Below, piece after piece: positions 267-16,146 of a DNA stretch of 64,000 nucleotides; positions within the stretch are counted from its first letter, which is position 1; each line of letters opens with the position of its first letter. Source of the stretch: Syntrophomonadales bacterium. Lineage in GTDB: Bacteria > Bacillota > Syntrophomonadia > Syntrophomonadales > DTU052. A program made the translations under genes and the position numbers. A model generated the notes under the pieces. It was given only the letters and a program-made list of their open reading frames with translations, did not search any database and was not told where the DNA came from. The stretch is taken from positions 80,394-144,393 of the forward strand of contig JBMNJO010000025.1 of the NCBI GenBank assembly GCA_050951725.1, read 5' to 3'.

Positions 267-282
267 TGGCATACGAATTGCA
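267..282 (+). promoter_or_regulatory. sigma-54 (RpoN) -24/-12 promoter upstream of the acyl-CoA synthetase gene
   Basis: TGGCAT-acgaa-TTGCA matches the consensus TGGCAC-N5-TTGCW, with the GG and GC dinucleotides at canonical spacing. It lies about 130 nt upstream of ATG 411. The direct repeat AAATTCTG at 133-140 and 151-158 is at UAS distance. Confidence 0.65.
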
Positions 283-2093: not shown

Positions 2094-2191
2094 ATTAGTT
2101 TTACCAAATTATCATTTATTTATTTGTGAAAACAGTTATTATTATATATAGGAACAAGATTACTAAGTGCCTACATTATGGAAACTAGCAT

Positions 2192-2206
2192 TGGGATTCA
2201 GGTTGC
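2192..2206 (+). promoter_or_regulatory. possible sigma-54 promoter upstream of the fadN-like gene
   Basis: TGGGAT-tcagg-TTGC has GG and TTGC at the correct spacing, but -24 positions 4 and 6 are off consensus. It lies about 195 nt upstream of GTG 2400. Confidence 0.4.
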
Positions 2207-2399
2207 CTTTGCGGTTTAGCATGAATAATCACATAACCTGGTGTTTCTATAAAAAGCACGATCTTAATACGCATCTACATTCCCGCTACCAGGTTGCATT
2301 CGAGCGACGAAAGGGGGTGTCAGGGGAAACAATCGTCTGACGACACAGTGTTCGGGCAGCAACTTTTATTAGGACAATACGAAACGGGAGGTAGAACTG

Positions 2400-4775
2400 G
2401 TGAAGAGAAGAATCAAAAAAGTAGCAGTGCTTGGTTCAGGTACCATGGGGAGCGGAATTGCCGCGCAGTGTGCAGCTACGGGTATAAGAAGTTATCTTCT
2501 GGATATCGTGCCACCGAATCTCAGCGATGCAGAAAAGGCCAATCCGGCAGCAAGGAACAAGATTGCCGAGGCCAACAAGGGCAATCTTCTCAAGTCCCGT
2601 CCAGCCCAGCTGTATGACAAAGCCGATGCAGATTACATTACTGTCGGCAACATGGAAGACAACCTTGAATGGCTGAAGGAGTGCGACTGGATAGTAGAAG
2701 CAGTCCCGGAAAACCTGGCGATCAAGAAAGATGTTCTGAAGAAAATTGAGCCGTTCATCAAGCCGGGAGCCATCGTAAGTTCGAATACCTCTACCATTTC
2801 AATCACCCTCATGGCTGAGGATATGCCCTTAGAATTCAGAAAGAACTGGCTGGGGACTCACTTCTTCAACCCGGTCCGCTATATGAAACTTTTGGAAATC
2901 ATTCCGGGCAAGGATACTGATCCCGAAGTATTACAGTTTATGGCGGATTTCGGTGAGCGGGTTCTGGGTAAGAGCATCGTATGGTGTAAAGATACCCCAG
3001 GATTTATCGCCAATCGTTTCGGCAACCAGGGTGGACCGTCCATAGGCCGGTTGATGAAAGAGCTGGACCTGACCTTCTCGGAAATCGATGCGATTTGCGG
3101 TCCGGCAATCGGCAGACCCAAAACCGGTTCCTTTGGCTTGATGGACCTGGTTGGACTCGATATTGCTGTAAACGGTACCCAGTCAATCCAAAGTGTACTG
3201 TCTGATCCCGCCGAGAAAGAACTTTACGAGGTACCCGAGTTATTCCTCAAGATGAAAGAAAAGAACATGCTGGGGAACAAGACCAAAGGCGGTTTCTACA
3301 AGAGAGTCGGCAAAGAAAAACTGATGCTGAATCCTGAAACCTTCGAATATGGACCCCAGAAACCTGCGGAGTTCCCGAGCCTTGACAAGGCCAAAGCTGC
3401 CAGGAGCCTGCCGGAAAAACTGGCTGCATTCTACGAAGGTGACGACAAAGCAGCCCAGCTGGTCTGGAAGATGAACAGCGGCACTCTGCAGTATGCAACC
3501 AAGAAGATACCCGAAATATCCGATGACATAGTCAACATTGACAACGCTATGGAGTGGGGTTACAACCATCAGGCCGGTCCCTTCAAGATGTGGAACGGAC
3601 TGGATCTTCCGAAGTATGTAGCTCGCATCGAGGAAGAGGGCGGTTCGGTAGCTCCCTGGGTCAAAGAAATGTTTGACGCCGGAATCACTGCCTTCTACAA
3701 GTCGGAAGACGGCGTTGATTATTACTATTCCATTCCGGACAAGGCTTACAAGCCTGTGCCAGCCAACCCGAAAGCGGTTAATTTCCTCAAGCTCAAGCAG
3801 GACAACAAGGTTGTATTCTCTATGCCCGCTGGAACCCTTTATGATATCGGCGATGGCGTAGTCTGCCTGCAGTTACATTCAAAGAACAATGCAATCTCAG
3901 AAGATCTGATCGCGGCCATGGAAGCAGCCCAGGCTGAACTGGCCAAGAACTGGGAAGGTATGGTCATTACCGGCGGCGGCAAGAACTTCTGTGTCGGAGC
4001 AGATCTGACCGGTGTAGTCCAGGCTATTCAGACCGGCGCCTGGGATCAGTTGGATGCAGCTCTCAAGCGGAACCAGGATGCCATGATGGCGAACAAATAT
4101 TCACTCAAGCCCGTGGTAGTGGCTCCTTATGGCCAGACTCTGGGAGGCGGCTGTGAGATTGTGCTGCAGTGTGCTGCCGCTCAGGCAGTAGCTGAGACCT
4201 ATATCGGTTTAGTTGAAGTGGGAGTAGGCCTGCTGCCCGCTGCCGGCGGATGTAAGGAAGCAGCGTTGAGAGCGATCGCAGCAGTGCAGGGCATTCAGGG
4301 GCCCGTTCTCGTGGACCATATGATTGCTCCTTTCCAGAACATGGCTACAGCCAAGGTTGCTACCAGCGCCAAGGAAGGTAAGAAACTGGGATACCTGAGA
4401 CCTACCGACGGCATATCCATGAACCCGGTACTCCAGATCGCAGATGCCAAGAAACAGGTACTGAGGCTGATCGAAGACGATTACAATCCACCAGTCAGCA
4501 GACCCGTTCCGGCTCCCGGTAAGAATGACACCGCACTGCTGAAACTGGGCGTAAAACAAGCCGTTCTGGCAGGCATGGCCAGTGAATACGATTGGTTTAT
4601 CGCCTGCAAGATCGCGGATGTTATGGCTGGCGGTGATGTTGTAAAAGGCGCCATGATTACCGAGCAGTACTTCCTGGATCTGGAGAGAGAAGCGTTCTTG
4701 AGTCTGTGCGGTCAGCAGAAGACCCAGGACAGAATCATGTCCCTGCTGAAGACCGGCAAGCCGTTGCGCAACTAG
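2400..4775 (+). CDS. bifunctional 3-hydroxyacyl-CoA dehydrogenase / enoyl-CoA hydratase (FadN/FadB type)
   Basis: 791 aa. The N-terminus has the Rossmann motif VAVLGSGTMGSGIA. The C-terminus has a crotonase-like segment (GGGKNFCVGADL, GQTLGGGCEI). Size and domain order match Bacillus FadN as I recall it. Confidence 0.9.
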   Translation: MKRRIKKVAVLGSGTMGSGIAAQCAATGIRSYLLDIVPPNLSDAEKANPAARNKIAEANKGNLLKSRPAQLYDKADADYITVGNMEDNLEWLKECDWIVEAVPENLAIKKDVLKKIEPFIKPGAIVSSNTSTISITLMAEDMPLEFRKNWLGTHFFNPVRYMKLLEIIPGKDTDPEVLQFMADFGERVLGKSIVWCKDTPGFIANRFGNQGGPSIGRLMKELDLTFSEIDAICGPAIGRPKTGSFGLMDLVGLDIAVNGTQSIQSVLSDPAEKELYEVPELFLKMKEKNMLGNKTKGGFYKRVGKEKLMLNPETFEYGPQKPAEFPSLDKAKAARSLPEKLAAFYEGDDKAAQLVWKMNSGTLQYATKKIPEISDDIVNIDNAMEWGYNHQAGPFKMWNGLDLPKYVARIEEEGGSVAPWVKEMFDAGITAFYKSEDGVDYYYSIPDKAYKPVPANPKAVNFLKLKQDNKVVFSMPAGTLYDIGDGVVCLQLHSKNNAISEDLIAAMEAAQAELAKNWEGMVITGGGKNFCVGADLTGVVQAIQTGAWDQLDAALKRNQDAMMANKYSLKPVVVAPYGQTLGGGCEIVLQCAAAQAVAETYIGLVEVGVGLLPAAGGCKEAALRAIAAVQGIQGPVLVDHMIAPFQNMATAKVATSAKEGKKLGYLRPTDGISMNPVLQIADAKKQVLRLIEDDYNPPVSRPVPAPGKNDTALLKLGVKQAVLAGMASEYDWFIACKIADVMAGGDVVKGAMITEQYFLDLEREAFLSLCGQQKTQDRIMSLLKTGKPLRN

Positions 4776-4814
4776 GGTTTGGTTAGGTATTAAAAAATCG
4801 GGGAGGTAAGACAA

Positions 4815-6003
4815 GTGAGAGAAGCTGTTATCGTATCCGCAGTACGCACTGCCGGTGGTAAGGCTCCCAGGGGGACCTTAAGAGACACCCGGCCCGAGTT
4901 CTTGGGAAAACTTTGTATGGAAGAAGCCATTAGAAGATGCGGACCGAATTTTAAGGCTGAAATGATAGACGATGTAATCTGGGGCGCTGCTACCCCGGAA
5001 CAATCCTGCGGTATGAACACCGCCCGGATAACTGCTCTTTATGCCGGGATTCCGGAACACGTACCTGCAGTAACCGTCAACCGTTTCTGCTCCTCGGGTT
5101 CGCAGGCTATTGCCTTTGCAGCCGAGGGTATCATTGCTAACCGCGCCGACATAGTACTGGCCGGGCGGCATTGAGCACATGAGCATGATCGCCATGGGCG
5201 GTGTAACCAGACCCAACCCGGATCTGGTACTCGATCCCGAGGTATCCAAGGTATACACCAGCATGGGTCAGACCGCTGAGAATGTGGCCAGCCGCTACAA
5301 CATCAGCCGTGAAGATCAGGACCTCTTCGGCTACAACAGCATGAAGAAAGCTTCTGCCGCTGAAAAAGCTGGCAAGTTCAAGGATGAGATCGTACCTGTG
5401 CCGGTCAAGATCACAACCCTGGGCCCGGATGGCAAGCCGGTGACCAAGGAGATCCTTTATGATTATGAAGAAGGTATCCGGCATGATGTATCCCTTGAAG
5501 GGATGGCCAAGCTCCGTCCGGCTTTTGTACCCGGTGGCACCGTAACTGCTGCCAACTCTTCCCAGACCACTGACGGATCAGCAGCTGTCATGGTGATGGA
5601 AAAACAAAAAGCTCTTGAACTGGGTATTAAACCGCGTCTAAGATTTGTTGGCTTCGCGGTAGCCGGTTGCGGACCGGATGAAATGGGTATCGGCCCGGTA
5701 TTTGCGGTGCCCAAGGTATTGAAACGGACCGGCCTGGAACTCAAGGACATCGGCCTGGTTGAGCTTAACGAAGCCTTTGCTTCCCAGTCGCTCTACTGCA
5801 TCCGGACTTTAGGATTAAATCCGGACATCGTCAACGTAAACGGCGGCGCTATCGCCATGGGACATCCCATGGGTGCAACCGGAGCCAAGCTGACCGCTAC
5901 CCTGATGTATGAGATGGAGAGACGGGATGTTAAGTACGGTATGGTAACAATGTGCATCGGCGGCGGCCAGGGTGCAGCTACCATATTTGAACTCATTAAA
6001 TAA
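4815..6003 (+). pseudogene. acetyl-CoA C-acyltransferase (thiolase, FadA type) split by a 1-nt frameshift
   Basis: ORFs 4815..5174 and 5179..6003 together form one thiolase (NRFCSSGSQAI active-site Cys region; C-terminal CIGGGQGAA). The first frame ends LAGRH*. The +1 frame reads GIEHMSMIAMGG, so one extra base sits in GCCGGGCGGC at about 5163-5166. Confidence 0.85.
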
Positions 6004-6124
6004 GAGATTCGGGAAACTCTTTCCCTGAGATTATTGGCCCAGAGGTGGGGGGACCCAGCCAAGCGGGTCTCTCCACTGGTCATTTTATCGGTTTTACCAG
6101 TTCACAAAGAAGGAAGGTTGAGAC

Positions 6125-7957
6125 ATGGCCTACAAATACGCTTATAACACCAGAGATATTAAATTCATTCTTAAGGAATGGCTCCCGGTAGACGAGATAC
6201 TGGCCTATGACCGGTACAAGGACTATTATACCAAGGATGACTTTGATACCATTATCGACCAGGTCCGCAAGGTAGCAGCCGAGGTTATTGCTCCTACCGC
6301 GGAAGAGGGCGATGACATAGGGGTCCGTTATGAGAATGGTCAGGCTTATATACCCCCTTCGTTCCATGCCGTTTACCGCTTTATGCAGGATAATGGCTGG
6401 GGTTCCAGCAATATTGACGATAACGCTGAAGGCGCTCTGCCGCACGTTTTGAATGGCTTTTTGCTAGAGATTGAGGCAGCGGCTAACCCGGCTTTCATGC
6501 CCTATGTGGGAGCAGGAAGCGGGGCGGCAGCAGTTATCCAGCATTTCGGAACCGAAGAACAGAAACAGAGATTCCTGCCCAAGATGTTTGATGGCACCTG
6601 GTCCGGAACCATGTGTCTGACCGAGCCGACTGCCGGTTCAGACGTTGGGGACCTCCTTTCCAAGGCATATCCTACCGATGAGCCGGGGATTTACATGCTC
6701 AAAGGGCAGAAGATATTCATAACTGCTGGTGACCGTGATGATGTCGAAAATATTATCCACCTGTATCTGGCCCGGGTAGAGGGCGCAGCGCCCGGAACCA
6801 AGGGGCTCTCACTCTTCATCGCCCCCAAATACTGGGTGAATGAGGATGGCACCCTGTCGGACAACGATGTTCAGTGCGCCGGGGTAGAACACAAACTGGG
6901 ACTTAAGGGGTCAGCCACTGCAGCTCTGGTAGTGGGCGAGAACAACAACTGCCGGGGCTGGATACTGGGAGATCCGCCGGATGAGAATGGCAAGGGTCAG
7001 GGTATGGCCCAGATGTTCCAGATGATGAACGAGGCCCGGGTTGATACCGGCCGTCTGTCGACTGCTGTGGCTGCCAATGCCTATTGGAATGCAGTTGCCT
7101 ACGGAAGAGAGCGCGTTCAGGGCCGTCTTTTGACTAATCCCAAAGCTGGTCGGGTTACCATCGACAAGCACGAAGATGTCAAGAGAATGTACCTCCTGAA
7201 CAAGGCTACCACTGAGGCCTGCCGGGCGCTTCTGGGCAAGGCTTACTACTATGAAGATGTTCGTATATATGACCCCGATCCTGCTCGCCGCGACTGGGCT
7301 CAGAGGAATCTGGACATGATAACCCCGCTCTGCAAAGCTTACCCCAGTGACGAGGCCTGGATACTGACCGCCGAATCACTGCAATCCTACGGCGGATATG
7401 GCTACTGCGAAGATTACCCGGCAGCCAGCGCCACCCGGGACTGCAAGATCTGGTCCATCTGGGAAGGGACCAACTTCATTCAGTCATTGGACCTGATAGG
7501 TCGTAAATGGCGGCAGAACAAGGGTCAGGACTTCGCAAACACTCTGAAACAAATATCCGATTTCATCGCCGAGAATAAGGGCAAGATCGAAGGTTTCGAC
7601 CGGGAGATCGACCACCTTGAAAAGGCATTAAAGGCATACTGGGAGATCCAGGGAGCAATACTCCAGTTTATGACCTCCGGCAAGGTTGGTCTGATGCCGG
7701 TTTATGCCCGCCGGATTCTAACTGCTACCTCCCAGCTCTACTGCGGTTACCTCCTCCTTGATCAGGCCAAGATCGCCCTGCAGAGGATGGCGGAACTGGG
7801 TAAAGATCACTTTGACTACAACTTCTATCTCGGGAAGGTTTTCTCGGCTCGTTACTACCTCAACAATGTTGTGCCGAATGTATGGCACATCAGTGAAATC
7901 ATCAAGATTGGTGATATGTCAGTAGTTGAAGCTCCGGATGAAATTTTCGATTATTAA
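6125..7957 (+). CDS. acyl-CoA dehydrogenase (large, about 600-aa type)
   Basis: 610 aa. It has the ACAD signature CLTEPTAGSDVGDL...GQKIFITAGD and a SIWEGTNFIQ segment. Confidence 0.9.
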   Translation: MAYKYAYNTRDIKFILKEWLPVDEILAYDRYKDYYTKDDFDTIIDQVRKVAAEVIAPTAEEGDDIGVRYENGQAYIPPSFHAVYRFMQDNGWGSSNIDDNAEGALPHVLNGFLLEIEAAANPAFMPYVGAGSGAAAVIQHFGTEEQKQRFLPKMFDGTWSGTMCLTEPTAGSDVGDLLSKAYPTDEPGIYMLKGQKIFITAGDRDDVENIIHLYLARVEGAAPGTKGLSLFIAPKYWVNEDGTLSDNDVQCAGVEHKLGLKGSATAALVVGENNNCRGWILGDPPDENGKGQGMAQMFQMMNEARVDTGRLSTAVAANAYWNAVAYGRERVQGRLLTNPKAGRVTIDKHEDVKRMYLLNKATTEACRALLGKAYYYEDVRIYDPDPARRDWAQRNLDMITPLCKAYPSDEAWILTAESLQSYGGYGYCEDYPAASATRDCKIWSIWEGTNFIQSLDLIGRKWRQNKGQDFANTLKQISDFIAENKGKIEGFDREIDHLEKALKAYWEIQGAILQFMTSGKVGLMPVYARRILTATSQLYCGYLLLDQAKIALQRMAELGKDHFDYNFYLGKVFSARYYLNNVVPNVWHISEIIKIGDMSVVEAPDEIFDY

Positions 7958-8047
7958 GAATTATTAGAAGGGTGTATCACCACTTACAAAGAAATACTTT
8001 GTTGTGGCATCGTTTTGTCACTGTTGCATGTCACTGACTGGAATAAT

Positions 8048-8075
8048 GATAGCCTTCGCCCCTGCGAAGGCTATC
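8048..8075 (+). other. perfect 12-bp hairpin between the ACAD and abfD-like genes
   Basis: GATAGCCTTCGC-ccct-GCGAAGGCTATC. No T tract follows, so it may be a processing or attenuation element or a weak terminator. Confidence 0.35.
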
Positions 8076-8106
8076 AACATCTTAAAAAGGGAAAGGAGAA
8101 TTGATT

Positions 8107-9603
8107 GTGAGGACCAAACAGGAGTATATTGACGGACTTCGCAAAAAGAACCCCAACCTTTGGTTCAACGGGTCAAAACTGGACCGGCTCGATCCCATGC
8201 AGGAAGGGGCTATCAATGTCATGGGGCTCACCTTCGATGCCGCATTCGATCCGGATTTAAAAGACCTGTGTACTGCAACCTCGCACCTGACTGGAGAAAC
8301 CATCAACCGGTTCAACCATATCCACCAGAGCCCCGATGATCTCCACAAGAAGCAGGATATGACCCGCGCGTTATGCAATCAAGTGGGCACCTGTATTCAA
8401 AGGTGTATGGGAGTCGATGCTGCCAACGCTATCAATGCCGTTTCCTTCGAAGCAGCCAAGAACCCGAACAAGGCTACGGAATACCATCAGAACTTCCTCA
8501 AGTGGCTGGAATACTTCCAGACAAACGATCTGGTAGCGAGCTGTGCCCAGACTGATGTTAAAGGGGAAAGATTAAAAAGGCCCGCCCAACAGACAGACCC
8601 TGACCAGTACCTGCGGGTGGTAGAAAAGAAGAGTGACGGGATCGTGGTTCGGGGCTGTAAGGTCCATATTTCGGAGGCTTCTATATCCGACGAGATCCTG
8701 GTGGTACCCAACCGCGCTCTGATGAAAGACGAAACGGATTATGCCGTATGTTTTGCTGTTCCATCTGACCATCCGGAGATCAAGCAGGTAGTATCCTTCC
8801 ATAACCCAACCAAGAGAGATTATCTGAGAGGTCCGAAGAGAACTGGTTATACTGATTCCTACATTATATTTGATGACACCTTCATTCCCTGGGAGCGGGT
8901 ATTCCTGTGCGGTGAAGTGGATCATGGCGGAATAGCCGCTTTATTATTTGCCCTGTTCCACCGCCACAGCTATTCCGGCTGTAAACCTGCCTGCCTCGAC
9001 TTTATACTCGGCCTGGCGGCGGGTGCGGCTCACATCAACGGCATCGAAAAAACCCCACATGTCAGGGCCATGCTCTCTGAACTCATAATGACAGCCGAAT
9101 TGGGATACGCGGCTGGCTTTACCGCTTCTTCGTTGGGCAAACCTGAGGTTTATATACCTGGATACGGTCCGGTCCCCTATGGTCCCGGCAGCTATATCCC
9201 GAATTCCATTTACGCCAACGTAGGAAGGTGCCTGACGGGAGAAGCTGTTTTCCACGAGCAGGAGATCCTCTGTAATATCGCAGGGGGAATCCCGGCCACC
9301 TTCCCAACTGAGAAAGACCTGCTCAATCCAGAACTCAAACCCTTCCTGGAAAAGTATATCAACCGCAATCCCAAGATACCCGTAGAAGACCAGTGGAGAT
9401 TCTGGCTGCTGTTTGTTGATGCCACCACCTCACATTCCGCCGGTTCCGGAAACTACGGGAACTACCACGGCGGAGGCTCCCCAATTATGGAGCAGATTGC
9501 CATCACCAGCCAGTATGATATCAGGAAGAGAAGAGATACCGTCTACAAGATGGCTGGCATGTCGGTAGTTGCAGATAAAAATATCAAGGTAATGGGTGAG
9601 TAG
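8107..9603 (+). CDS. 4-hydroxybutyryl-CoA dehydratase / vinylacetyl-CoA isomerase family protein (AbfD-like), paralog 1
   Basis: The ORF is 8101..9603. CIQRCMG (C-x3-C) plus HRHSYSGCKP (H-x6-C) fit the AbfD [4Fe-4S] ligand pattern. Start GTG 8107 is chosen by alignment with paralog 2 (MRTKEQYI). Confidence 0.8.
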   Translation: MRTKQEYIDGLRKKNPNLWFNGSKLDRLDPMQEGAINVMGLTFDAAFDPDLKDLCTATSHLTGETINRFNHIHQSPDDLHKKQDMTRALCNQVGTCIQRCMGVDAANAINAVSFEAAKNPNKATEYHQNFLKWLEYFQTNDLVASCAQTDVKGERLKRPAQQTDPDQYLRVVEKKSDGIVVRGCKVHISEASISDEILVVPNRALMKDETDYAVCFAVPSDHPEIKQVVSFHNPTKRDYLRGPKRTGYTDSYIIFDDTFIPWERVFLCGEVDHGGIAALLFALFHRHSYSGCKPACLDFILGLAAGAAHINGIEKTPHVRAMLSELIMTAELGYAAGFTASSLGKPEVYIPGYGPVPYGPGSYIPNSIYANVGRCLTGEAVFHEQEILCNIAGGIPATFPTEKDLLNPELKPFLEKYINRNPKIPVEDQWRFWLLFVDATTSHSAGSGNYGNYHGGGSPIMEQIAITSQYDIRKRRDTVYKMAGMSVVADKNIKVMGE

Positions 9604-9642
9604 GCAAATACGATATACAGTTCTGAAGTAACACAATTATCC

Positions 9643-9671
9643 AAGCCCCTGACTAAAAAGTTCAGGGGCTT
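9643..9671 (+). terminator. hairpin after the abfD-like gene
   Basis: AAGCCCCTGA-ctaaaaagt-TCAGGGGCTT. The downstream T tract is weak. Confidence 0.55.
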
Positions 9672-9676
9672 TACCT

Positions 9677-9806
9677 ATTTCGGGGACACCTTTTATTTCG
9701 CAAGGTGTTCCCGAAATAGTAAAAACATTTAGTAAGGTGTCCCCAAAATAGCTAAACATTTAGTAAGGCTCCCGAAAATAGCAAAATAGAGGGGTCCCCC
9801 AAAAAG
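9677..9806. repeat. cluster of inverted and tandem repeats with a GGGGAC/GTCCCC core
   Basis: ATTTCGGGGACACCTT (9677-9692) pairs with AAGGTGTTCCCGAAAT (9702-9717). A tandem unit AAACATTTAGTAAGG..CCC.AAAATAG occurs at 9723-9751 and 9754-9781. GAGGGGTCCCCCAAAAAG lies at 9789-9806. Confidence 0.7.
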
Positions 9807-10113
9807 CTCGCATAAAATTGGGTTCGTAGAACCACAACTGTCAAAATAGAGAATTTTGCAAAATCCAGGATCTTAGAACCTTTGCTGCCAAACTTGGGCA
9901 ACGCATAATCCTTCTGACCGAAGGCTGCCAGGATTGGAGGCAGCACGCGATGAGGGAAACTCAGCGTTCTTTGTTCAGTTTCGGCGACAAATACCCGATC
10001 AAACCCGGTGTTGTTTACACCGTTTCTGGTTCACAAAGAGTTCATATCTTTGCCATGCTTTTATCATGAATAATGGGTAAATTAATAACAGCTTAGTGGA
10101 AGGGGGTGAAAAA

Positions 10114-10506
10114 GTGAGAAGAGCTTTAGTTTTTGCAGTAGCTCTGATCATGGTGGTTGGTGCAGTATCCTTTGCCTGGGCAGGGGATGCCTCGACCAAG
10201 AATGCTAACCAGGCTAATGTTCCGCAGTTGCAGATCAGCGATGCCCAGAAGGCAAAGCTGACTTCGCTCTGGACACAGATCCTTGAAGTGAAGAAGGAGA
10301 TCCTGAAGGATAATCTGAAAAAAGGGGTTATTACCCAGGATCAGTACAATGCAATGGAAAAACGATTAGACGCCCGGTTGGAGGCAATTAAATCAGGGAA
10401 ATTCACCCCGGGGATGCGCCATAAGATGCACAAGGGCATGAGTCCCGACAAGGACCGATGCCCGCAGGGCTGTGCCCGCTGGCAGCAACCCCAAACACAA
10501 AGCTAA
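10114..10506 (+). CDS. small secreted protein (DUF2680-like by recollection)
   Basis: The signal peptide is RRALVFAVALIMVVGAVSFAWA. GTG 10114 follows the SD GGAAGGGGGTG. A helical Q/K-rich repeat segment follows the signal peptide. Confidence 0.55.
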   Translation: MRRALVFAVALIMVVGAVSFAWAGDASTKNANQANVPQLQISDAQKAKLTSLWTQILEVKKEILKDNLKKGVITQDQYNAMEKRLDARLEAIKSGKFTPGMRHKMHKGMSPDKDRCPQGCARWQQPQTQS

Positions 10507-10553: not shown

Positions 10554-10976
10554 TTAAAGGATCCCCTCAGCGACAGCATTCTCAATCCAACTCCGAATTT
10601 CATCACGGACTCTTTCAAATTCAGCAAGGATGACCTCTTCGTTTCCGCTGACAGCCGCTGGGTCCGGAAAACTGTGATGGATCATGGCCCTGGCATTTGG
10701 TAACCAGGGGCAGCTTTCCCGCGCACTGTCGCAGACAGTTACCGCATAATCAATATCAGTGTCCGTGAATTCCTCGATGCTCTTCGAACGGTGTCCACTC
10801 AGATCCACCCCGATTTCTTTCATGGCTGCGATGGCAAACGGATTGACCCGCAGTGGCTCTGTTCCCGCACTGAAGACCTCATAACGGTCCCCGTACATAG
10901 AGCGCAAAAGCCCTTCGGCCATCTGTGACCGGGCTGAGTTCTGAGTGCAGACGAACAGTACCTTCCTTTTATCCAT
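10554..10976 (-). CDS. arsC: arsenate reductase, LMW-PTPase (thioredoxin-coupled) family
   Basis: 140 aa. It has the CX5R P-loop VLFVCTQNSARSQMAEG and downstream Cys residues (TVCDSARESCPW). Confidence 0.85.
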   Translation of the reverse strand: MDKRKVLFVCTQNSARSQMAEGLLRSMYGDRYEVFSAGTEPLRVNPFAIAAMKEIGVDLSGHRSKSIEEFTDTDIDYAVTVCDSARESCPWLPNARAMIHHSFPDPAAVSGNEEVILAEFERVRDEIRSWIENAVAEGIL

Positions 10977-11274: not shown

Positions 11275-13293
11275 GTGAATCGAGGTATCGCGAAGATCCC
11301 CTATCGGGATACTTGGCTGAACACAACGGATAAAAGAGATGTCTCACCTGGTCAAGTAAGACAGGTAGTTGCCGAATCATGGCAAAGATGTCGCAAGTTT
11401 GGGATTCGCCCGTATCAAAACATGACGGTCAGGGTAAAAACCCAAACCGAGATGGACGAGATCATGGATAAGACTAGGAGCTTAAGAGCGGTCGCGTGTC
11501 CACATATGGAGCGGATGTTACAATTCGTCCAGGAATCGGGGTTGGTTGTTGTACTTACCGATGAGGAAAGCTGTGTTGTAGCGATTAATGGTAACCCGGA
11601 GACTTTGAAAGAGGTCAGGGCCATGGGCTTCCAGATCGGCTCAGTTTGGGCCGAAAATGAGGTGGGAACCAATGCCATTGGCACTACTGCCTTGTTAAAA
11701 CAGGCGATCCAAATTTCCGGAACTGAACACTACTCAGCCAAGTTTCATCGCTGGACCTGTTCTGCAGCACCGATCCTACAGGATAACACCTTGAAGGGAA
11801 TCCTCGGCATCTTTGGACCGAGCAGCAGTTTACATAGCCATACGCTGGGGATGGTGGTGGCAGCAGCCCAGGCGATTGAGATACATCTGCAGAAAGAAGA
11901 GCAGTATAGACGTCAGTTCGTTCTTCACAGCCAATTAAATGGTGTTTTTGAAGCCCTGGCTGAAGGGGTAATTGTCCTTGACAAAAACGGATATGTACAG
12001 CAAGCTAACCTCGCTGCCCGACAGATTCTGAATTCCAGCCCGGCAGATATTGTAGGAAGTGACGCCCTGGAACTGATCCACGATCATAGAGAAGAAATAA
12101 AGCGGCTCCTGGAGCAAGGGCAGGAATGTGAATTCGAGTTCATCCCGGATAACAGACAGAGTTCAAGTCACGCCACCGGAATTGGCAAACCGATCATTGA
12201 CCGTGAAAAACAGGTCATCGGGGCTACAATTATTCTGCGTCCCATTGCTCAGGTTCGGCAATTGGTGGCCCGGATGACAGGAGCCAAAGCGCGGTTTACC
12301 TTTGATTCCATAATCGGACAGGAGCCGTCGCTTAAAAACGTTATCAAGCTGGCAAAGATTGCGAGCCGCACCAGTTCCAATGTCCTCATGCAGGGTGAGA
12401 GCGGGACCGGAAAAGAAGTCTTTGCCCAGGCAATTCATAATGGTAGCAGCCGGCGTAATGGACCGTTTGTCGCAGTAAATTGTGCCGCCCTTCCCCGTGA
12501 ACTGGTGGGCAGTGAGCTGTTCGGTTATGACGAAGGGGCTTTTACCGGAGCCAAGCGGGAAGGCAGGCCGGGGAAGTTTGAACTGGCTAATGGCGGCACC
12601 CTTTTACTCGACGAAATTGGGGACATGCCCCTGGAGCAACAGGCCACTCTGCTTCGTGCTATTCAAGAAAAAGCCATTATGAGGGTAGGCGGCGACAAGC
12701 TGATTCGGGTTAACGTCCGGATCATTGCGGCCACCAACCGGGATTTGCTGGGTCTAGTCGCCGAGGGCCGGTTCAGGCAGGATCTATATTACCGGTTGAA
12801 TGTCATGCAGGTTGCGATCCCTCCTTTGCGTGATCGCCGGGGTGATATCCCTGTCCTTTTCCGGTACTTTTTGGACGACATGTGCAAAAAGATGGGGAAA
12901 GATATAAATCATGTTGATGACGAAGTGATAAAATGCCTCTGTGCCTACAACTGGCCGGGTAATGTCCGTGAACTGCAAAATGTTGCGGAAAGGACCAGTC
13001 TGATGGTTGAGGATGGACATGTAACCGTAAGCCACCTGCCCCAGGAAGTTACCTGCCCCAACCGGGAAAGCCGGAGTGATGGCTGGGAATGGGGCCCCCG
13101 TTCAGTAATCTCTGTAGCTCATGAATCATTGGCCCGGGAAAATCGTAAACGAGCCATGGAACAGAGAGAGAAAGAAAGGATTATACACGCACTGGATGAC
13201 AACGGCGGGAATGTCACCAGAACTGCTGCGGTCCTTGGTATCTCTCGCAACACCCTGTACCGTAAATTGAAAAAGTACGGGATACAAAACTAA
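11275..13293 (+). CDS. sigma-54-dependent transcriptional activator (GAF/PAS - AAA+ - Fis-type HTH; AcoR-like)
   Basis: 672 aa. It has Walker A GESGTGKEVFAQAIH, the sigma-54 contact loop GAFTGA and the C-terminal HTH AAVLGISRNTLYRKLKKYGI. Confidence 0.9.
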   Translation: MNRGIAKIPYRDTWLNTTDKRDVSPGQVRQVVAESWQRCRKFGIRPYQNMTVRVKTQTEMDEIMDKTRSLRAVACPHMERMLQFVQESGLVVVLTDEESCVVAINGNPETLKEVRAMGFQIGSVWAENEVGTNAIGTTALLKQAIQISGTEHYSAKFHRWTCSAAPILQDNTLKGILGIFGPSSSLHSHTLGMVVAAAQAIEIHLQKEEQYRRQFVLHSQLNGVFEALAEGVIVLDKNGYVQQANLAARQILNSSPADIVGSDALELIHDHREEIKRLLEQGQECEFEFIPDNRQSSSHATGIGKPIIDREKQVIGATIILRPIAQVRQLVARMTGAKARFTFDSIIGQEPSLKNVIKLAKIASRTSSNVLMQGESGTGKEVFAQAIHNGSSRRNGPFVAVNCAALPRELVGSELFGYDEGAFTGAKREGRPGKFELANGGTLLLDEIGDMPLEQQATLLRAIQEKAIMRVGGDKLIRVNVRIIAATNRDLLGLVAEGRFRQDLYYRLNVMQVAIPPLRDRRGDIPVLFRYFLDDMCKKMGKDINHVDDEVIKCLCAYNWPGNVRELQNVAERTSLMVEDGHVTVSHLPQEVTCPNRESRSDGWEWGPRSVISVAHESLARENRKRAMEQREKERIIHALDDNGGNVTRTAAVLGISRNTLYRKLKKYGIQN

Positions 13294-13298
13294 CATCT

Positions 13299-13566
13299 TG
13301 TAACCAACATGTTAACATTGCAAGATATTTCACAAAACTGTTACATTGCCATTACATGTTCGACGGAAGTGGCGGCAAATTCTGTTACACTATCGCAAAT
13401 GAGGTAATTCCCCCAGGTTAAGATAATATAGCCATTCTTCAAGACATTTCTTTATCATGTACCGCAATGCAGTGCAACCAAACTGTTAACACATGTCACC
13501 CTATGTAACATAATTAGTGTCACCAAACTGTAATCTTTTAGTGCAGTGACAGATGCGGATGTTACA
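13299..13566. promoter_or_regulatory. array of TGTTACA/TGTAACA heptamers (candidate enhancer/UAS sites)
   Basis: Copies start at 13299, 13310, 13339, 13383, 13484, 13504 and 13560, with variants at 13352 and 13529. Three are embedded in a longer CAAA(A)CTGT repeat at 13333, 13478 and 13523. Confidence 0.5.
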
Positions 13567-13687
13567 TCTTCGAGACATTATAATAACCAGGGTTCCCTGG
13601 TGTGGTTATGAATGTCCAGTCGGTGATTCCCTGACAGGGGCTATTTTACCGCATTTTTCGACAAAATTTTTGCCTGACCAGCTAAGT

Positions 13688-13703
13688 TGGCACGCAAATT
13701 GCA
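13688..13703 (+). promoter_or_regulatory. sigma-54 -24/-12 promoter
   Basis: TGGCAC-gcaaa-TTGCA is a near-perfect consensus match. It lies 125 nt upstream of ATG 13828. Confidence 0.7.
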
Positions 13704-13827
13704 AGTACTATGGATGAAAGGCCGGATGTGTTAAGCAAACGATTAGGGATTCCAATGGACAACCTAACGTTCGCTCAGCAGAGTGGAAGTATTGATCACC
13801 GGGATTAGATGTAAAGGAGGACTTTTA

Positions 13828-15114
13828 ATGACAGAGAATATCAGGGAATTCATCCTGGAAGTTATGAGCGATTATAAGAACGAAAAGTCGATGAAATATT
13901 CTCAGAGTCCCCTGGCATGGAAGATCCAAAGCGGTTTCCCGCAAAGACTTCGTGAAACGGTCTTTTCCGGCGGTCTTAGTTATTCAGTGCGCGGCTGGGC
14001 CGGGTGGGGTAACTGGATCGATAACCCGTATATCATGATTAAACATCGGGCCGTAAATGGTAAAGCAAAGAACTCCCTCTCAATCATGTATGTCTTTTCT
14101 GCTGACATGCAGTACTGTTATCTGGCTCTGATGGTGCGCTGGGAACGGCCCAACATTGAAGAGATCGCAAAAGAAGCCAGGATCTGCCGTAACAAGATTC
14201 GCCCTCGTAACTCGGCTCAATACTCCGAGTATATGGATCTCCGCTCAATCGGCGAAATGGCACATCGGATGGAGGAGGCCTGCGTTTTCTGCCGGGTATA
14301 CAGAGGCGACATCATGCCCGAAGAAACAGTTCTCAAGGAAGATTTGATCAGCGTAATCACACTATATGAAAGCTACCTAAGGATGAAGAAGTTTGGAAGA
14401 ACTCCCATCAAGGGAAAAGACGATGCAATTAACCGGGTATACATCAAGTACCGCCTGGGACGCGAGGATGTCCATTGTCACTGTGAGGCCGTTTACGCCG
14501 ACTCTGACAATTATACTGCGGAAATGGTGGAAAACATCTGTAAACGTTCCGGTTGTTCCGGAATAATCAGCACCAGCCCATCGCAGAAATATGATCTCAA
14601 CCGTCACGCGAATCCCAGGAACATGGATGCGATTTGCGAATATCGGGATACGATGCACCGGATCCTTCGGCACATGGAGGTTCTGGGTGCTGATGATAAG
14701 GTAATTGCACCATACCTGCATATAGCTTTTCATGCCATAAGAAATGGCGATACCCATGGTTCAGAGATAAGGGTTTCATACACCGAACCGGCTTCATACA
14801 GCATGATCAACTGGTTCAGCAACAAGCTGAAGGACAAGACCCGGAATATCTCAGTCCATGGCGGTTCCCCGGTGCGGGTCAACGTGCAGTATGTGGACAG
14901 ACAATCGAACCAGTTCCAGCGTTACTGGGAAAGTTGTCAGATCTACAACGGAGAAAACAAGGCTTATCACTTCATCCTCGTGGAAATCAGCGAAGACCTG
15001 CGGTCCATGAGCCACGAAGCCCTGGTAAAAGCATTCACCGAAACCGTTCGTGATTTTTCTTCGGAATTCGGAGAAATCAGGCCTGGAGCCTGGTATGAAC
15101 GGCAGATTGGATAA
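13828..15114 (+). CDS. McrB-N/DUF3578-like N-terminal domain fused to an unassigned His/Cys-rich C-terminal domain
   Basis: The ORF is 13783..15114, with ATG 13828 after the SD AAAGGAGG. The N-terminus shows YSVRGWAGWGNW..NPYI...SIMYVFSADMQYCYLAL, which matches the pattern I recall for DUF3578. The C-terminus carries HCHCE, YDLNRH and HIAFHAIRNGDTHG. Confidence 0.6.
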   Translation: MTENIREFILEVMSDYKNEKSMKYSQSPLAWKIQSGFPQRLRETVFSGGLSYSVRGWAGWGNWIDNPYIMIKHRAVNGKAKNSLSIMYVFSADMQYCYLALMVRWERPNIEEIAKEARICRNKIRPRNSAQYSEYMDLRSIGEMAHRMEEACVFCRVYRGDIMPEETVLKEDLISVITLYESYLRMKKFGRTPIKGKDDAINRVYIKYRLGREDVHCHCEAVYADSDNYTAEMVENICKRSGCSGIISTSPSQKYDLNRHANPRNMDAICEYRDTMHRILRHMEVLGADDKVIAPYLHIAFHAIRNGDTHGSEIRVSYTEPASYSMINWFSNKLKDKTRNISVHGGSPVRVNVQYVDRQSNQFQRYWESCQIYNGENKAYHFILVEISEDLRSMSHEALVKAFTETVRDFSSEFGEIRPGAWYERQIG

Positions 15115-15243
15115 GCCCTGTTTTTAAATTATGAAAGTCCCTTAACCTTGTGGCCAACCTCGCCAGCCCACACCTGGCGGGTTGGCCTCTTTGTCTCTTT
15201 CTGATTATTGCTTCAATAATTCGCCGTAGGAACTCAGAATCCT

Positions 15244-16146
15244 TCATATACTGGGAGATCTGCCGGGAGAATAGGAGGTATTCCCGGATAACTCAGCCCT
15301 CACCAGCTTTTCCAGTTCCCCCTTTTGAAAAACCGTTCCTGACAAGCGCGCCATTCGTTCAACGTAGGCCAGGTAATCAAAGTCATTTTTCAGAGTCCTG
15401 GCATAGGCTGATGCCCATTCCTTGGGGGATGGTTTTTCTGGGAGATTCGGGTTGGCCGCGAGAAACGATTTGCGGAACTGGCTGTCCTGCTGCCTGAGCA
15501 TCTCCTGCTTCACCATGATCCAAAGGTCCCCTCTTACATGCTCTACCCCCTGAACCCTGATATTCCTGGCCTTGAGTACCTCTCCCAAGAGAATGAGGTC
15601 ATCATGGGAGTAACTGAAGTTTCGGCTCCAGGTCTCAGTGTTCTGAAACTCGGGTTTGCGCCTGATGTCATGTTGAATCAGCAGGGATCGAATCCGGTCT
15701 TCCGTTAGATCGTAGTTCAGCATTTCCAGGGTGATGCCATTTTCTTTCAGGGTGGCTTTCAGTTTCTCCAGATCTTTTAAAGGTATATCTACAGGGTGCG
15801 GCCACATCAGATATGGCCGACGGTAACTGTACACAAACTGGGTAATATGGGGCCGGGCAAACTCGATGATCTTATCGTTGATCTCCTCTCGCACGATTTG
15901 AAAGAGGTGGGCCGGGACTTTTATCTGTTGACTTCTGAGAGCATCACCTGCGGAACGGGTTATCTTGTTCATTTCATCCTTGAGGATTTCCTTGCGCTCC
16001 ACTTCCGTGAAATCGCTTAATTCCTCCTGCAAATACATCCAGTTCGCCATCAGGGATTCTACGTGGGCATCAACATATTCCTTAATGAGGGTTATTGCAG
16101 TCTCCTTGTCTTCCTTCTTACCAAATAATCGTTCGAGAAAACCCAG
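15244..16146 (-). CDS. hypothetical protein
   Basis: The ORF with an ATG start is 15244..16050. The frame stays open upstream to a CTG at 16146, which sits 7 nt after the SD GGGGGTG and gives the N-terminus LGFLERLFGKK. A TTGACA-18-TATAGA promoter lies on the minus strand at about 16225-16254. Confidence 0.5.
   Translation of the reverse strand: MGFLERLFGKKEDKETAITLIKEYVDAHVESLMANWMYLQEELSDFTEVERKEILKDEMNKITRSAGDALRSQQIKVPAHLFQIVREEINDKIIEFARPHITQFVYSYRRPYLMWPHPVDIPLKDLEKLKATLKENGITLEMLNYDLTEDRIRSLLIQHDIRRKPEFQNTETWSRNFSYSHDDLILLGEVLKARNIRVQGVEHVRGDLWIMVKQEMLRQQDSQFRKSFLAANPNLPEKPSPKEWASAYARTLKNDFDYLAYVERMARLSGTVFQKGELEKLVRAELSGNTSYSPGRSPSI

What the first reader, a model, noticed from the sequence alone, without database searches (positions are those of the whole stretch)
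13299..15114. Sigma-54 promoter plus TGTTACA heptamer array drive a McrB-N/DUF3578-like gene directly downstream of the enhancer-binding protein
The 490-nt spacer after the EBP gene contains at least seven TGTTACA/TGTAACA heptamers. Some form dyads (TGTTAACA-n12-TGTAACA at 13484-13510) and three are embedded in CAAA(A)CTGT repeats. A near-consensus TGGCAC-N5-TTGCA follows at 13688-13703. The first gene served by this promoter is not a catabolic enzyme. Its N-terminus resembles the modified-DNA-reading domain of McrB-type restriction proteins (YSVRGWAGWGNW...MYVFSADMQYCYLAL). It is fused to an unassigned His/Cys-rich domain (HCHCE, YDLNRH, HIAFHAIRNGDTHG), possibly a metal hydrolase fold. Signal-dependent sigma-54 control of a restriction-like protein would be unusual. 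Alternatively, the gene was inserted between the promoter and its original target.
Basis: partly seen in the sequence, partly recalled or inferred. Interest (0 to 1): 0.65.

Follow-up and report, generated by a model that had tools for sequence, protein, structure and literature searches.

The report
Sigma-54-controlled DNA-reader/amidohydrolase fusion gene
In a family of syntrophic fatty-acid-degrading bacteria, a conserved activator-dependent (sigma-54) promoter drives one gene that joins a McrB-type modified-DNA-reading domain to an amidase-fold domain instead of a nuclease, so it is real and unusual but is neither a restriction enzyme nor an insertion.

Summary
An exact TGGCAC-N5-TTGCA sits at 13688-13703. 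TGTNAC(A/C) heptamers are about 100-fold enriched in the spacer, with 4 exact TGTTACA/TGTAACA and 7 with the degenerate form (P ~1e-8).

Nine orthologous lineages, all Syntrophomonadaceae-type contigs, keep the promoter 126-155 nt before the ATG. They also keep two paired-heptamer enhancer sites at fixed positions, about -170 and -128 from the -24 GG. UAS-II reads TGT-N12-ACA, the NifA/FhlA class. This holds in four lineages without the adjacent EBP and in one where the gene has moved. Promoter, enhancers and gene therefore form one module, and the "inserted gene" alternative is refuted. The EBP gene is the variable part.

The 428-aa protein has two domains:
- The N-terminal domain is PF12102 MrcB_N/DUF3578 (79 bits).
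- The C-terminal domain is a divergent N-formylglutamate-amidohydrolase/PghP-fold domain. Support comes from a profile chain to PF05013, an AlphaFold model (pLDDT 86), and Foldseek top hits 2ODF and 3A9L.

It has no nuclease, NTPase, McrC or PADLOC hit, and no phage or plasmid copies. The canonical first metal-ligand His is Tyr here and varies among orthologs.

Best reading: a signal-induced, DNA-tethered amidohydrolase of unknown substrate. The regulation is well supported. The enzymology is inferred.

The parts
11275..13293 (+). Enhancer-binding protein gene (672 aa): MimR_N-like/GAF/PAS sensor, sigma-54 AAA+ domain with GAFTGA, HTH_8
   Evidence: Pfam hits are Sigma54_activat 232.7 bits, AAA_lid_14, HTH_8, PAS and GAF. 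The nearest NCBIfam models, DhaR and PrdR, score below their cut-offs. Orthologs at 70-77% identity lie next to the target gene in L005, L013 and L008. L109 also has an adjacent EBP gene (687 aa, same Pfam domains).
13299..13389 (.). Distal heptamer cluster. Paired sites are TGTAACCAACATGTTAA (13299) and TTTCACAAAACTGTTACA (13328), with an overlapping site at 13340 and a single TGTTACA at 13383.
   Evidence: These sites are among the top PWM hits of the window (16.1, 13.4 and 13.3 bits). Comparable extra sites occur only in the EBP-adjacent close relatives L109 and L005.
13484..13510 (.). It is an accessory site, -204 to -178 from the -24 GG.
   Evidence: It is shared with L109 only.
13518..13535 (+). 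UAS-I: TGTCACCAAACTGTAATC, two heptamers 11 bp apart, -170 from the -24 GG
   Evidence: It lies at -172 to -169 in the seven lineages measured. It is also readable in L109 and L110 in the -180..-100 stretch printed. PWM score is 16.1 bits.
13560..13577 (+). UAS-II: TGTTACATCTTCGAGACA (TGT-N12-ACA), -128 from the -24 GG
   Evidence: It lies at -130 to -127 in six of the seven lineages. In the seventh (L009) only a degenerate form is visible at that place in the printed sequence. Clean copies are present in L109 and L110. It falls in the same motif class as NifA/FhlA and 15 Clostridiales EBP groups, and within their usual 100-250 bp UAS-to-promoter distance (PMC6615313).
13688..13703 (+). Sigma-54 promoter TGGCAC-GCAAA-TTGCA (-24/-12)
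   Evidence: Exact consensus, unique in the window. It is conserved with at most 1 mismatch 126-155 nt before the ATG in nine lineages.
13704..13827 (+). Leader of about 115 nt with RBS AAAGGAGG (13813-13820). It holds a possible short uORF: ATG at 13763, 17 codons.
   Evidence: There is no Rfam match and no conserved RNA structure.
13861..14376 (+). N-terminal domain (aa 12-183): MrcB_N/DUF3578 ('ADAM') DNA-reader fold
   Evidence: PF12102 at 79.4 bits covers 2-181 of 183 profile positions. pLDDT is about 80-95 in both models. It is homologous to the N-termini of a plasmid McrB-AAA5 protein next to McrC and of a DUF3578-HNH protein.
14395..15072 (+). C-terminal domain (aa 190-415): divergent FGase/PghP-fold amidohydrolase-like domain
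   Evidence: A profile search found 93 relatives, and 49 of 60 scanned hit PF05013. Examples are P0018 (E 5e-32 to our profile; FGase 37.9 bits, above the 28.9 cut-off) and P0033 (42 bits). Model 2 has pLDDT 86 and pTM 0.82. Foldseek top hits are 2ODF, 3A9L, 2QVP and 2BCO.
13828..15114 (+). Whole coding sequence, 428 aa
   Evidence: Thirteen homologs of the family were found besides an identical copy, ten of them near full length (389-451 aa). The two named by their source are Syntrophomonadaceae MAGs.
15152..15200 (+). Intrinsic-terminator-like hairpin GGCCAACCTCGCCAG...CTGGCGGGTTGGCC followed by TCTTTGTCTCTTT. It lies 38 nt after the stop, between the convergent genes.
   Evidence: Minimum free energy is -27.3 kcal/mol, z = -4.75, with 0 of 200 shuffles as stable.

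Best explanation
The region is a dedicated, monocistronic sigma-54 transcription unit.

Regulation. RNA polymerase-sigma-54 binds TGGCAC-N5-TTGCA at 13688-13703. It is activated through DNA looping by an enhancer-binding protein bound to two enhancer sites 110-170 bp upstream. Each site is a pair of TGTNAC(A/C) heptamers one helical turn apart (TGT-N12-ACA type). The activator is most probably the GAF/PAS-AAA+-HTH_8 protein encoded immediately upstream, which would respond to a small-molecule or redox signal. The extra heptamers nearer the EBP gene are accessory sites. Transcription ends at the hairpin at 15152-15200.

Product. The product is a vertically inherited, family-specific two-domain protein. 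A McrB-N/DUF3578 reader domain (in McrB it binds DNA and flips out a modified cytosine) is fused to an N-formylglutamate-amidohydrolase/poly-gamma-glutamate-hydrolase-fold domain. It copies the 'reader + effector' layout of type IV restriction enzymes but replaces the nuclease with an amidase-type domain.

Inferred action. The C-domain would then hydrolyse, or at least bind, an amide or peptide-type group there.

Shown: promoter, enhancers, synteny, domain identities, fold.
Inferred: which EBP binds, the inducing signal, DNA binding, catalysis and substrate.
For: Promoter and enhancers:
- The exact -24/-12 element is unique in the window.
- It is conserved 126-155 nt upstream of the ATG in nine lineages. 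These include four without an adjacent EBP (L001, L011, L009, L110) and one relocated copy (L110).
- UAS-I and UAS-II sit at fixed offsets of about -170 and -128.
- A leave-window-out PWM puts its top four hits of both strands of the window in the spacer.
- Heptamer enrichment has P ~1e-8.

Activator:
- The EBP has the sigma-54 AAA+ domain, GAFTGA and HTH_8.
- Its orthologs track the target gene in divergence: 77/73/70% for the EBP against 80/72/60% for the target.
- Its HTH recognition helix is invariant.
- The TGT-N10-12-ACA class, multiple UAS and the 100-250 bp distance are typical of Clostridiales EBPs (PMC6615313).

Transcription unit: a strong hairpin follows the stop codon.

Protein:
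- PF12102 scores 79 bits.
- The C-domain profile reaches FGase-positive relatives at E down to 2e-36.
- The model has pLDDT 86 and pTM 0.82.
- Foldseek top hits are 2ODF and 3A9L, and PghP/FGase/amidase in BFVD.
- The C-domain is more conserved than the N-domain in all 11 orthologs.
- D256-N258-R259, H298, H302, E313, R365, E386 and R392 are invariant.
- A relative of the C-domain is independently fused to other DNA-binding modules (Mrr_N plus wHTH in P0023) with an intact catalytic motif set; P0089 and P0096 carry a CDC48_N-type barrel that I read as AbrB-like.
Against: - There is no transcript, footprint or biochemical data.
- rpoN is not in the held sequence.
- Four lineages keep the promoter and enhancers but lack the adjacent EBP, and I could not find a relocated ortholog. 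The cognate activator is therefore not proven.
- The C-domain itself gives no direct Pfam or PDB sequence hit.
- The position of the relatives' invariant His in D-A-x-H-A is Tyr223 here. It varies Y/N/S/H among orthologs. The conserved Arg of 'SR' is Ser252 and the conserved Gln is Leu/Val. The canonical metal site may be altered or dead.
- The N-domain is a divergent DUF3578 member: 79 bits against 160-199 bits for plasmid McrB-like proteins.
- Stand-alone relatives of the C-domain sit in small-molecule or peptide-ligase neighbourhoods rather than DNA contexts.
Confidence: 0.7

Rival explanations
1. It is a signal-inducible type IV (modification-dependent) restriction or defence effector. The DUF3578 domain detects modified phage DNA and the C-domain is the toxic or defensive effector, induced through sigma-54.
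For: DUF3578 is the reader module of McrBC and of DUF3578-HNH single-chain enzymes (PMC11090510; PMC3874153). A tandem duplication occurs in one lineage. The same window carries a ZacABC defence locus.
Against: There is no nuclease, NTPase or McrC, and no PADLOC hit (E 0.023 only). The gene sits at a fixed, vertically inherited chromosomal position between housekeeping genes across 57-86% identity. No phage, IMG/VR or full-length plasmid copies were found. An amidase fold has no obvious way of destroying DNA.
Confidence: 0.1
2. The C-domain is a pseudo-enzyme or ligand sensor, and the protein is a DNA-binding regulator or nucleoid factor (one-component logic). The FGase-like pocket binds a metabolite, and the DUF3578 domain binds DNA.
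For: The canonical His is replaced and variable, and Arg and Gln of the relatives' signature are lost. Relatives are fused to classical transcription-factor modules: RHH-like N-terminus, Mrr_N, MarR/IclR wHTH, and barrels I read as AbrB-like.
Against: Most other catalytic-type residues are invariant: second His (H302), E313, E386, D256-N258-R259, R392. A family-specific invariant H218-C219-E220 could supply a replacement ligand. Three orthologs keep the His. DUF3578 is not known as a sequence-specific operator-binding domain.
Confidence: 0.2
3. The heptamer sites are bound by a regulator other than the adjacent EBP. This could be an EBP encoded elsewhere, or a repressor acting on a sigma-70 promoter inside the array. 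On this view the adjacent EBP serves another target, such as the beta-oxidation operon with the sigma-54-like site at 267.
For: Four lineages retain the sites and promoter without the adjacent EBP. A sigma-70-like TTAACA-17-CATAAT lies at 13486-13514 within the array. A second sigma-54-like element lies at 267-282 before the acyl-CoA ligase gene.
Against: The PWM finds no comparable site elsewhere in the window, including the 266 nt held upstream of position 267. Five lineages keep the EBP directly upstream with co-varying divergence. EBP genes usually neighbour their targets, although 38 of 263 in Clostridiales do not (PMC6615313).
Confidence: 0.15
4. The gene, or the 13.8-16.1 kb gene pair, was inserted between a sigma-54 promoter and its original catabolic target.
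For: Only the unusual nature of the first gene supports this. A convergent gene and terminator follow, so no downstream catabolic gene is served.
Against: Promoter, enhancers and this gene are contiguous in nine lineages and travel together when relocated (L110). Seven of the nine lineages (all but L009, whose upstream neighbour differs, and the relocated L110) share the flanking synteny DUF2680 ... gene ... 300-aa gene ... cheW-acpS-yjeF-alr-mazEF. No mobile-element genes flank it.
Confidence: 0.02

Closest known systems
McrB N-terminal domain (Pfam PF12102 MrcB_N / DUF3578, 'ADAM') of type IV restriction enzymes (EcoKMcrBC, DUF3578-HNH single-chain enzymes)
   Same: The N-terminal 180 aa match the family profile end to end at 79 bits. 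This is better than E. coli McrB itself, which scores 28.8 bits.
   Different: The effector is an amidohydrolase-fold domain, not a GTPase/McrC nuclease or HNH. The gene is a syntenic chromosomal gene under sigma-54 control, not a mobile defence-island gene. Binding of modified DNA is untested.
N-formylglutamate amidohydrolase family (PF05013; Atu2144, PDB 2ODF) and phage poly-gamma-glutamate hydrolase PghP (PDB 3A9L), within the Zn-dependent carboxypeptidase-like amidohydrolase fold
   Same: The fold matches (Foldseek E 3.6e-7 and 2.9e-5, prob 1.0). The motif order is shared: beta1-acidic/His, xDLNR, LHxxxH, E, QxE..LR. The link runs through relatives that pass the PF05013 gathering score.
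   Different: The domain gives no direct Pfam hit. The first His is Tyr or variable, Arg is Ser, and Gln is Leu/Val. A new invariant H-C-E appears. The domain is fused to a DNA reader. Substrate and activity are unknown.
Clostridial sigma-54/EBP modules with TGT-N10-12-ACA enhancers (NifA/FhlA class; AdhR, PrdR and other groups in PMC6615313)
   Same: It has a GAF/PAS-AAA+-HTH_8 activator next to its target, multiple UAS 100-250 bp upstream of TTGGCA-N5-TTGC, and TGT...ACA inverted repeats.
   Different: The target is not a catabolic or Stickland operon. It is a single gene for a DNA-reader/amidase fusion. The activator gene is missing from the locus in four of nine lineages while the cis elements persist.
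Other fusions of this FGase-like clade found here: Mrr_N + FGase-like + wHTH (P0023), CDC48_N/AbrB-like barrels (P0089, P0096), GGACT (P0018), PTP-SAK (P0039)
   Same: The same C-domain clade (E 1e-26 to 5e-32 for P0018, P0023; E 6e-22 for P0039; weaker, 2e-6 and 1e-5, for P0089 and P0096) is joined to nucleic-acid-binding or gamma-glutamyl-chemistry modules.
   Different: Those relatives keep the canonical D-A-x-H-A / SR / HGM / QxE signature. None carries DUF3578. Their genomic regulation is unknown.

Membership tests
Sigma-54-dependent promoter with EBP/UAS | -24 GG and -12 GC elements (TGGCAC-N5-TTGCW) correctly spaced and oriented toward the gene | tested here: met
   An exact match lies at 13688-13703 (+). 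It is conserved in nine lineages.
Sigma-54-dependent promoter with EBP/UAS | Cognate bEBP with sigma-54-interaction AAA+ domain, GAFTGA loop and DNA-binding HTH | tested here: met
   PF00158 scores 232.7 bits and HTH_8 61.6 bits. GAFTGA is present in the sequence 'YDEGAFTGAK'.
Sigma-54-dependent promoter with EBP/UAS | Upstream activator sequences about 100-250 bp upstream, conserved among orthologous loci | tested here: met
   UAS-I lies at about -170 and UAS-II at about -128 in nine lineages. A PWM from the other lineages singles out this spacer.
Sigma-54-dependent promoter with EBP/UAS | rpoN present; transcript starts downstream of the -12 element; EBP binds the UAS | not testable with these tools
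   Only 64 kb of the genome is held, and there are no expression or binding data.
McrB-N / DUF3578 (ADAM) domain | Profile match to PF12102 above the gathering score over most of the domain | tested here: met
   The score is 79.4 bits (cut-off 25), aligning residues 12-183 to profile positions 2-181 of 183.
McrB-N / DUF3578 (ADAM) domain | Binds DNA and flips out 5mC/4mC/5hmC | not testable with these tools
   Only a weak hhalign register is available: the G-x-G-N-W..P-Y loop aligns to E. coli GYGNF..PW.
Type IV restriction system (McrBC or single-chain reader-nuclease) | Endonuclease domain or partner (McrC PD-(D/E)xK, HNH, PLD), with or without an AAA+ GTPase motor | tested here: not met
   Pfam, NCBIfam and PADLOC show no nuclease or NTPase in the protein. 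The adjacent genes are an EBP and a family-specific 300-aa protein with no Pfam or PADLOC hit.
FGase / PghP Zn-amidohydrolase superfamily | Three-layer alpha/beta fold of the FGase/PghP/carboxypeptidase type | tested here: met
   Model 2 has C-domain pLDDT mostly 85-96. Foldseek top hits are 2ODF, 3A9L, 2QVP and 2BCO with prob 1.0.
FGase / PghP Zn-amidohydrolase superfamily | Sequence membership in PF05013 | tested here: inconclusive
   The window domain and its orthologs give no direct hit at E <= 10. Their profile finds relatives at E 2e-36 to 1e-3, and 49 of 60 of these hit PF05013, several above the 28.9-bit cut-off.
FGase / PghP Zn-amidohydrolase superfamily | Complete metal-ligand/catalytic set (His and acidic residue after beta1, second His, catalytic Glu) | tested here: inconclusive
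   H302, E313, E386 and D/E at 220 and 227 are conserved. The first His is Y223 here, and Y/N/S in 8 of the 11 orthologs and H in 3. The assignment of ligands rests on my knowledge of PghP/FGase and was not checked on coordinates.

The most novel reading that the evidence does not exclude
This would be the first non-nucleolytic 'type IV-like' enzyme. A McrB-N-type flipped-base reader would deliver an FGase/PghP-type amidohydrolase to DNA. There it would remove or trim an amide or peptide-linked group, such as an amino-acid-type base hypermodification, an amide-bearing 7-deazaguanine, or the peptide stub of a DNA-protein crosslink. Expression would be switched on by a metabolite-sensing sigma-54 activator of the DhaR/AcoR/MimR type, which senses carbonyl or alcohol compounds. 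The independent Mrr_N-FGase-like fusions would then mark a wider, unrecognised class of DNA-directed amidases.
Probability: 0.15. Interest if true: 0.8.

Novelty: new variant of a known kind. Interest (0 to 1): 0.45.

Why it matters
Sigma-54 regulons in Firmicutes-type anaerobes are known almost only for catabolic and Stickland operons. Here the whole cis-regulatory apparatus is dedicated to one gene whose product combines a restriction-enzyme DNA reader with an amidase fold. If the protein acts on DNA, it would extend the 'reader + effector' logic of modification-dependent enzymes to a hydrolytic, non-nuclease chemistry. It would also link that chemistry to metabolite sensing in syntrophic fatty-acid degraders.

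The finding also gives a clean, testable enhancer/promoter pair: two TGT-N12-ACA-type sites at fixed phasing. It offers a natural experiment too, with lineages that have and lack the adjacent activator gene. If the protein proves to be an ordinary metabolic amidase with a borrowed domain, what remains is a well-defined new EBP regulon in Syntrophomonadaceae.

Tried and rejected
- Direct Pfam, NCBIfam and PADLOC scans of the C-terminal half gave nothing usable. The NF049942 'DF seleno' hit (18 bits against a cut-off of 70) and PDC-S26 (E 0.023) were treated as noise.
- PDB sequence searches with the ortholog profile, the relatives' profile and the N-domain found only chance hits.
- The first AlphaFold run, with 12 close orthologs, left the C-domain unfolded (pLDDT 30-50). 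It was superseded by the deeper alignment.
- The search for a relocated EBP ortholog failed. The genome-contig scan found none. The metagenome scan found only the known locus, one 52%-identical fragment on a 2.3-kb contig, and paralogs at 36% identity or less. tblastn found no EBP remnant in the EBP-less loci.
- The profile word-index search for contexts of C-domain relatives returned almost only the orthologs.
- No riboswitch or leader structure was found: no Rfam hit and no consensus structure.
- No phage or IMG/VR copies were found.
- hhalign to E. coli McrB-N gave only a 40-column, non-significant register.
Full report
**1. What is in the sequence**

The EBP gene ends at 13293, and the next gene starts at ATG 13828 and stops at 15114, giving 428 aa.

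- Promoter. The 534-nt spacer contains TGGCACGCAAATTGCA at 13688-13703. This is the only exact TGGCAC-N5-TTGCW match in the 64-kb window.
- Exact heptamers. TGTTACA/TGTAACA occurs four times between 13339 and 13566, out of nine in the whole window.
- Degenerate heptamers. The form TGTNAC(A/C) gives seven sites in 13294-13687.
- Enrichment. Against the rest of the window the enrichment is about 100-fold, with Poisson P 4e-8 for the exact form and 1e-8 for the degenerate form.
- Other details.

The count of 'seven' needs the degenerate form, and the spacer is 534 nt rather than 490 nt.

**2. Comparative evidence for the regulatory module**

The 428-aa protein has only about a dozen full-length homologs among 5.8 billion clustered proteins. 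The two that carry a source name are from Syntrophomonadaceae MAGs.

I retrieved nine distinct orthologous lineages at 57-86% protein identity.

- Promoter conservation. In every lineage a sigma-54 element with at most one mismatch lies 126-155 nt before the ATG.
- Enhancer conservation. Two enhancer sites lie at fixed offsets from the -24 GG. UAS-I is at about -170, consensus TGTCACC-N4-TGTAACC. UAS-II is at about -128, consensus TGTTACAC-N4-TGTGACA, which reads TGT-N12-ACA.
- Window coordinates. These sites are 13518-13535 and 13560-13577.
- Independent test. A weight matrix built only from the other lineages places its four best hits of both strands of the window in this spacer. It finds nothing comparable elsewhere.
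- Match to known systems. Motif class, multiplicity and distance match what has been reconstructed for 15 EBP groups in Clostridiales and for NifA/FhlA (PMC6615313).
- Transcription end. A -27 kcal/mol hairpin with a U-rich tail follows the stop codon, and the next gene is convergent. The unit is therefore monocistronic.

**3. Which part is variable**

In seven of the nine lineages the gene and the convergent 300-aa gene sit between DUF2680 (preceded by the beta-oxidation/HpaB-like cluster where the held sequence reaches that far) and cheW-acpS-yjeF-alr-mazEF. In L009 the downstream genes are the same but a thiolase gene lies upstream.

- With the EBP. The EBP gene is adjacent in five lineages: window, L109, L005, L013 and L008. 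Identities for L005, L013 and L008 are 77, 73 and 70%, tracking those of the target. L109 carries an adjacent 687-aa EBP gene with the same domains.
- Without the EBP. It is absent, with no remnant, in L001, L011 and L009.
- Relocated copy. In L110 the gene lies between an ACP gene and a membrane-protein gene. It still carries the promoter and both enhancers.

The promoter, enhancers and gene are thus one evolutionary unit. The hypothesis that the gene was inserted between a promoter and another target is refuted. The adjacent EBP is the probable activator, but this is not proven. In EBP-less lineages an activator with the same specificity must be encoded elsewhere, and I could not find it.

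**4. The protein**

*N-terminal domain.* Residues 12-183 match PF12102 (MrcB_N/DUF3578) at 79 bits over the whole profile. E. coli McrB itself scores only 28.8 bits. The literature assigns this domain to methylcytosine recognition by base flipping in McrB (PMC11090510; PMC3874153; PMC7641849). Plasmid homologs of the domain are a DUF3578-AAA5 protein next to McrC and a DUF3578-HNH protein.

*C-terminal domain.* Residues 190-428 have no direct Pfam, NCBIfam or PDB sequence hit.

- Relatives. An ortholog profile finds 93 cluster representatives among 1.84 billion proteins, mostly 215-230-aa stand-alone proteins.
- Link to FGase. Of 60 relatives scanned, 49 hit PF05013 (FGase), several above the gathering score.
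- Structure. With these relatives in the alignment, AlphaFold2 gives pLDDT 86 and pTM 0.82.
- Fold matches. Foldseek's best PDB matches are the FGase-family protein Atu2144 (2ODF), phage poly-gamma-glutamate hydrolase (3A9L), putative metallopeptidases, and succinylglutamate desuccinylases. BFVD gives PghP, FGase and amidase-type lysins.
They map to the family signature as follows: HCHCE to beta1 plus D-A-x-H-A, YDLNR to ADLNR, and HIAFHAI to LHLxxHGM.

**5. Is the C-domain an enzyme?**

Evidence for function:
- The C-domain is more conserved than the N-domain in all 11 orthologs.
- D256, N258, R259, H298, H302, E313, R365, E386 and R392 are invariant.

Evidence against a canonical active site:
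- The relatives' invariant His is Tyr223 in the window. Among the 11 orthologs it is Y, N or S in eight and H in three.
- The relatives' Arg (SR motif) is an invariant Ser.
- Their Gln (QxE) is Leu/Val.
- A family-specific H218-C219-E220 is invariant.

The identification of that His as a metal ligand rests on my knowledge of PghP/FGase. It could not be checked on coordinates. I therefore treat catalysis as plausible but unproven.

**6. Clues to chemistry and targeting**

- Gamma-glutamyl chemistry. Relatives of the C-domain are fused to gamma-glutamyl cyclotransferase (GGACT).
- DNA-binding fusions. A relative is fused to Mrr_N plus wHTH, and others to CDC48_N-type barrels that I read as AbrB-like.
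- Phosphatase fusion. One is fused to a PTP-SAK phosphatase.
- Neighbourhoods. In Bacillus-type genomes the stand-alone form neighbours a COOH-NH2 ligase/ATP-grasp fusion, a Mur ligase, PEP mutase and spermidine synthase.

This points to amide or gamma-glutamyl-type substrates. It also points to repeated recruitment of the domain to DNA-binding modules, with catalytic motifs intact in those fusions.

**7. What it is not**

- The protein has no nuclease, NTPase or McrC.
- It has no PADLOC family hit.
- No phage, IMG/VR or full-length plasmid copies were found.
- Its chromosomal position is fixed in seven of the nine lineages.

It does not pass the membership test for a type IV restriction system, although it copies that architecture.

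**8. Verdict**

The regulatory reading of the first-stage reader is supported by phylogenetic footprinting. About 0.85 that the promoter and enhancers are functional and dedicated to this gene, and about 0.65 that the adjacent EBP is the activator.

The protein is a new domain combination, DUF3578 plus an FGase-like domain, confined to a narrow clade. My preferred mechanism is a signal-induced, DNA-tethered amidohydrolase, at about 0.35. The rivals are a sensor or pseudo-enzyme DNA-binding protein (about 0.2) and a defence effector (about 0.1). Interest is moderate: an unusual sigma-54 target and an unusual reader-effector fusion, but the function is unresolved and the taxonomic range is narrow.

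Noticed in passing
window 42851-49159 (+): Three consecutive genes (411, 605 and 1100 aa) match PADLOC ZacA (334 bits), ZacB (509 bits) and ZacC (1070 bits). This is a complete ZacABC candidate anti-phage locus about 28 kb from the finding. Pfam sees only DUF6361 in the first gene.
   Followed up: partly
window 267-282 (+): A second sigma-54-like element, TGGCATACGAATTGCA, lies about 100 nt upstream of the acyl-CoA ligase ORF (384-2093) that heads the beta-oxidation cluster. No TGTNAC-type enhancer is seen in the 266 nt held upstream, so it probably has a different activator.
   Followed up: partly
window 4815-6003 (+): The thiolase gene is split into two ORFs in different frames (4815-5174 and 5179-6003). 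Orthologs are intact at 395 aa (L001). This is either a frameshift pseudogene or an assembly error.
   Followed up: no
window 15244-16146 (-): The convergent, family-specific gene has no domain hit and is more conserved than the target gene. Its orthologs are 300 aa and start with GTG or ATG. The window has CTG at that codon behind a GGGGGTGA Shine-Dalgarno, so it uses either a rare CTG start or the internal ATG at 16050 (268 aa).
   Followed up: partly
window 13752-13816; L109, L110, L013, L008 leaders: An SD-like GGGA/GGAGG followed by ATGGA(C/T) is conserved in the 5' leader of five lineages. It opens short uORFs of 3 to at least 17 codons with non-conserved peptides, and is absent from L005, L001, L011 and L009. 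No conserved RNA structure or Rfam family was found.
   Followed up: partly
L013 6676-9411: The DUF3578-FGase-like gene is tandemly duplicated (the two copies, P0007 and P0009, are 72% and 64% identical to the window protein). The second copy retains the end of the leader and the RBS but has no sigma-54 promoter of its own. A terminator-like hairpin lies between the copies.
   Followed up: partly
L110 1-4001: In the P0005 lineage the gene has moved to a different neighbourhood, with ACP upstream and a 708-aa membrane protein downstream. It still carries its promoter and both enhancer sites.
   Followed up: yes
window 10554-10976 (-) and 10096-10506 (+): A low-molecular-weight phosphatase/ArsC-type gene (LMWPc) accompanies the EBP gene in three lineages (window, L005, L013) and is absent with it in the EBP-less loci. 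L008 has the EBP without it, and L109 has an unannotated 89-aa minus-strand ORF in that position. A DUF2680 protein gene precedes it. Weak PWM hits at 11139 and 11222 lie upstream of the EBP start.
   Followed up: no
L023-L026, L030, L032, L034 (Bacillus-type genomes), around 2000-9900: Stand-alone FGase-like relatives sit divergently next to a COOH-NH2 ligase/YheCD ATP-grasp fusion, a Mur-ligase-like gene and a PEP mutase. A spermidine synthase gene follows in several of the loci. This may be an uncharacterised amide-bond metabolite or polymer cluster.
   Followed up: partly
window 36000-37478 (+): A second HpaB/4-hydroxybutyryl-CoA-dehydratase-like paralog (492 aa) is present besides the one at 8101-9603. 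Further acyl-CoA ligase and dehydrogenase genes are scattered through the window.
   Followed up: no
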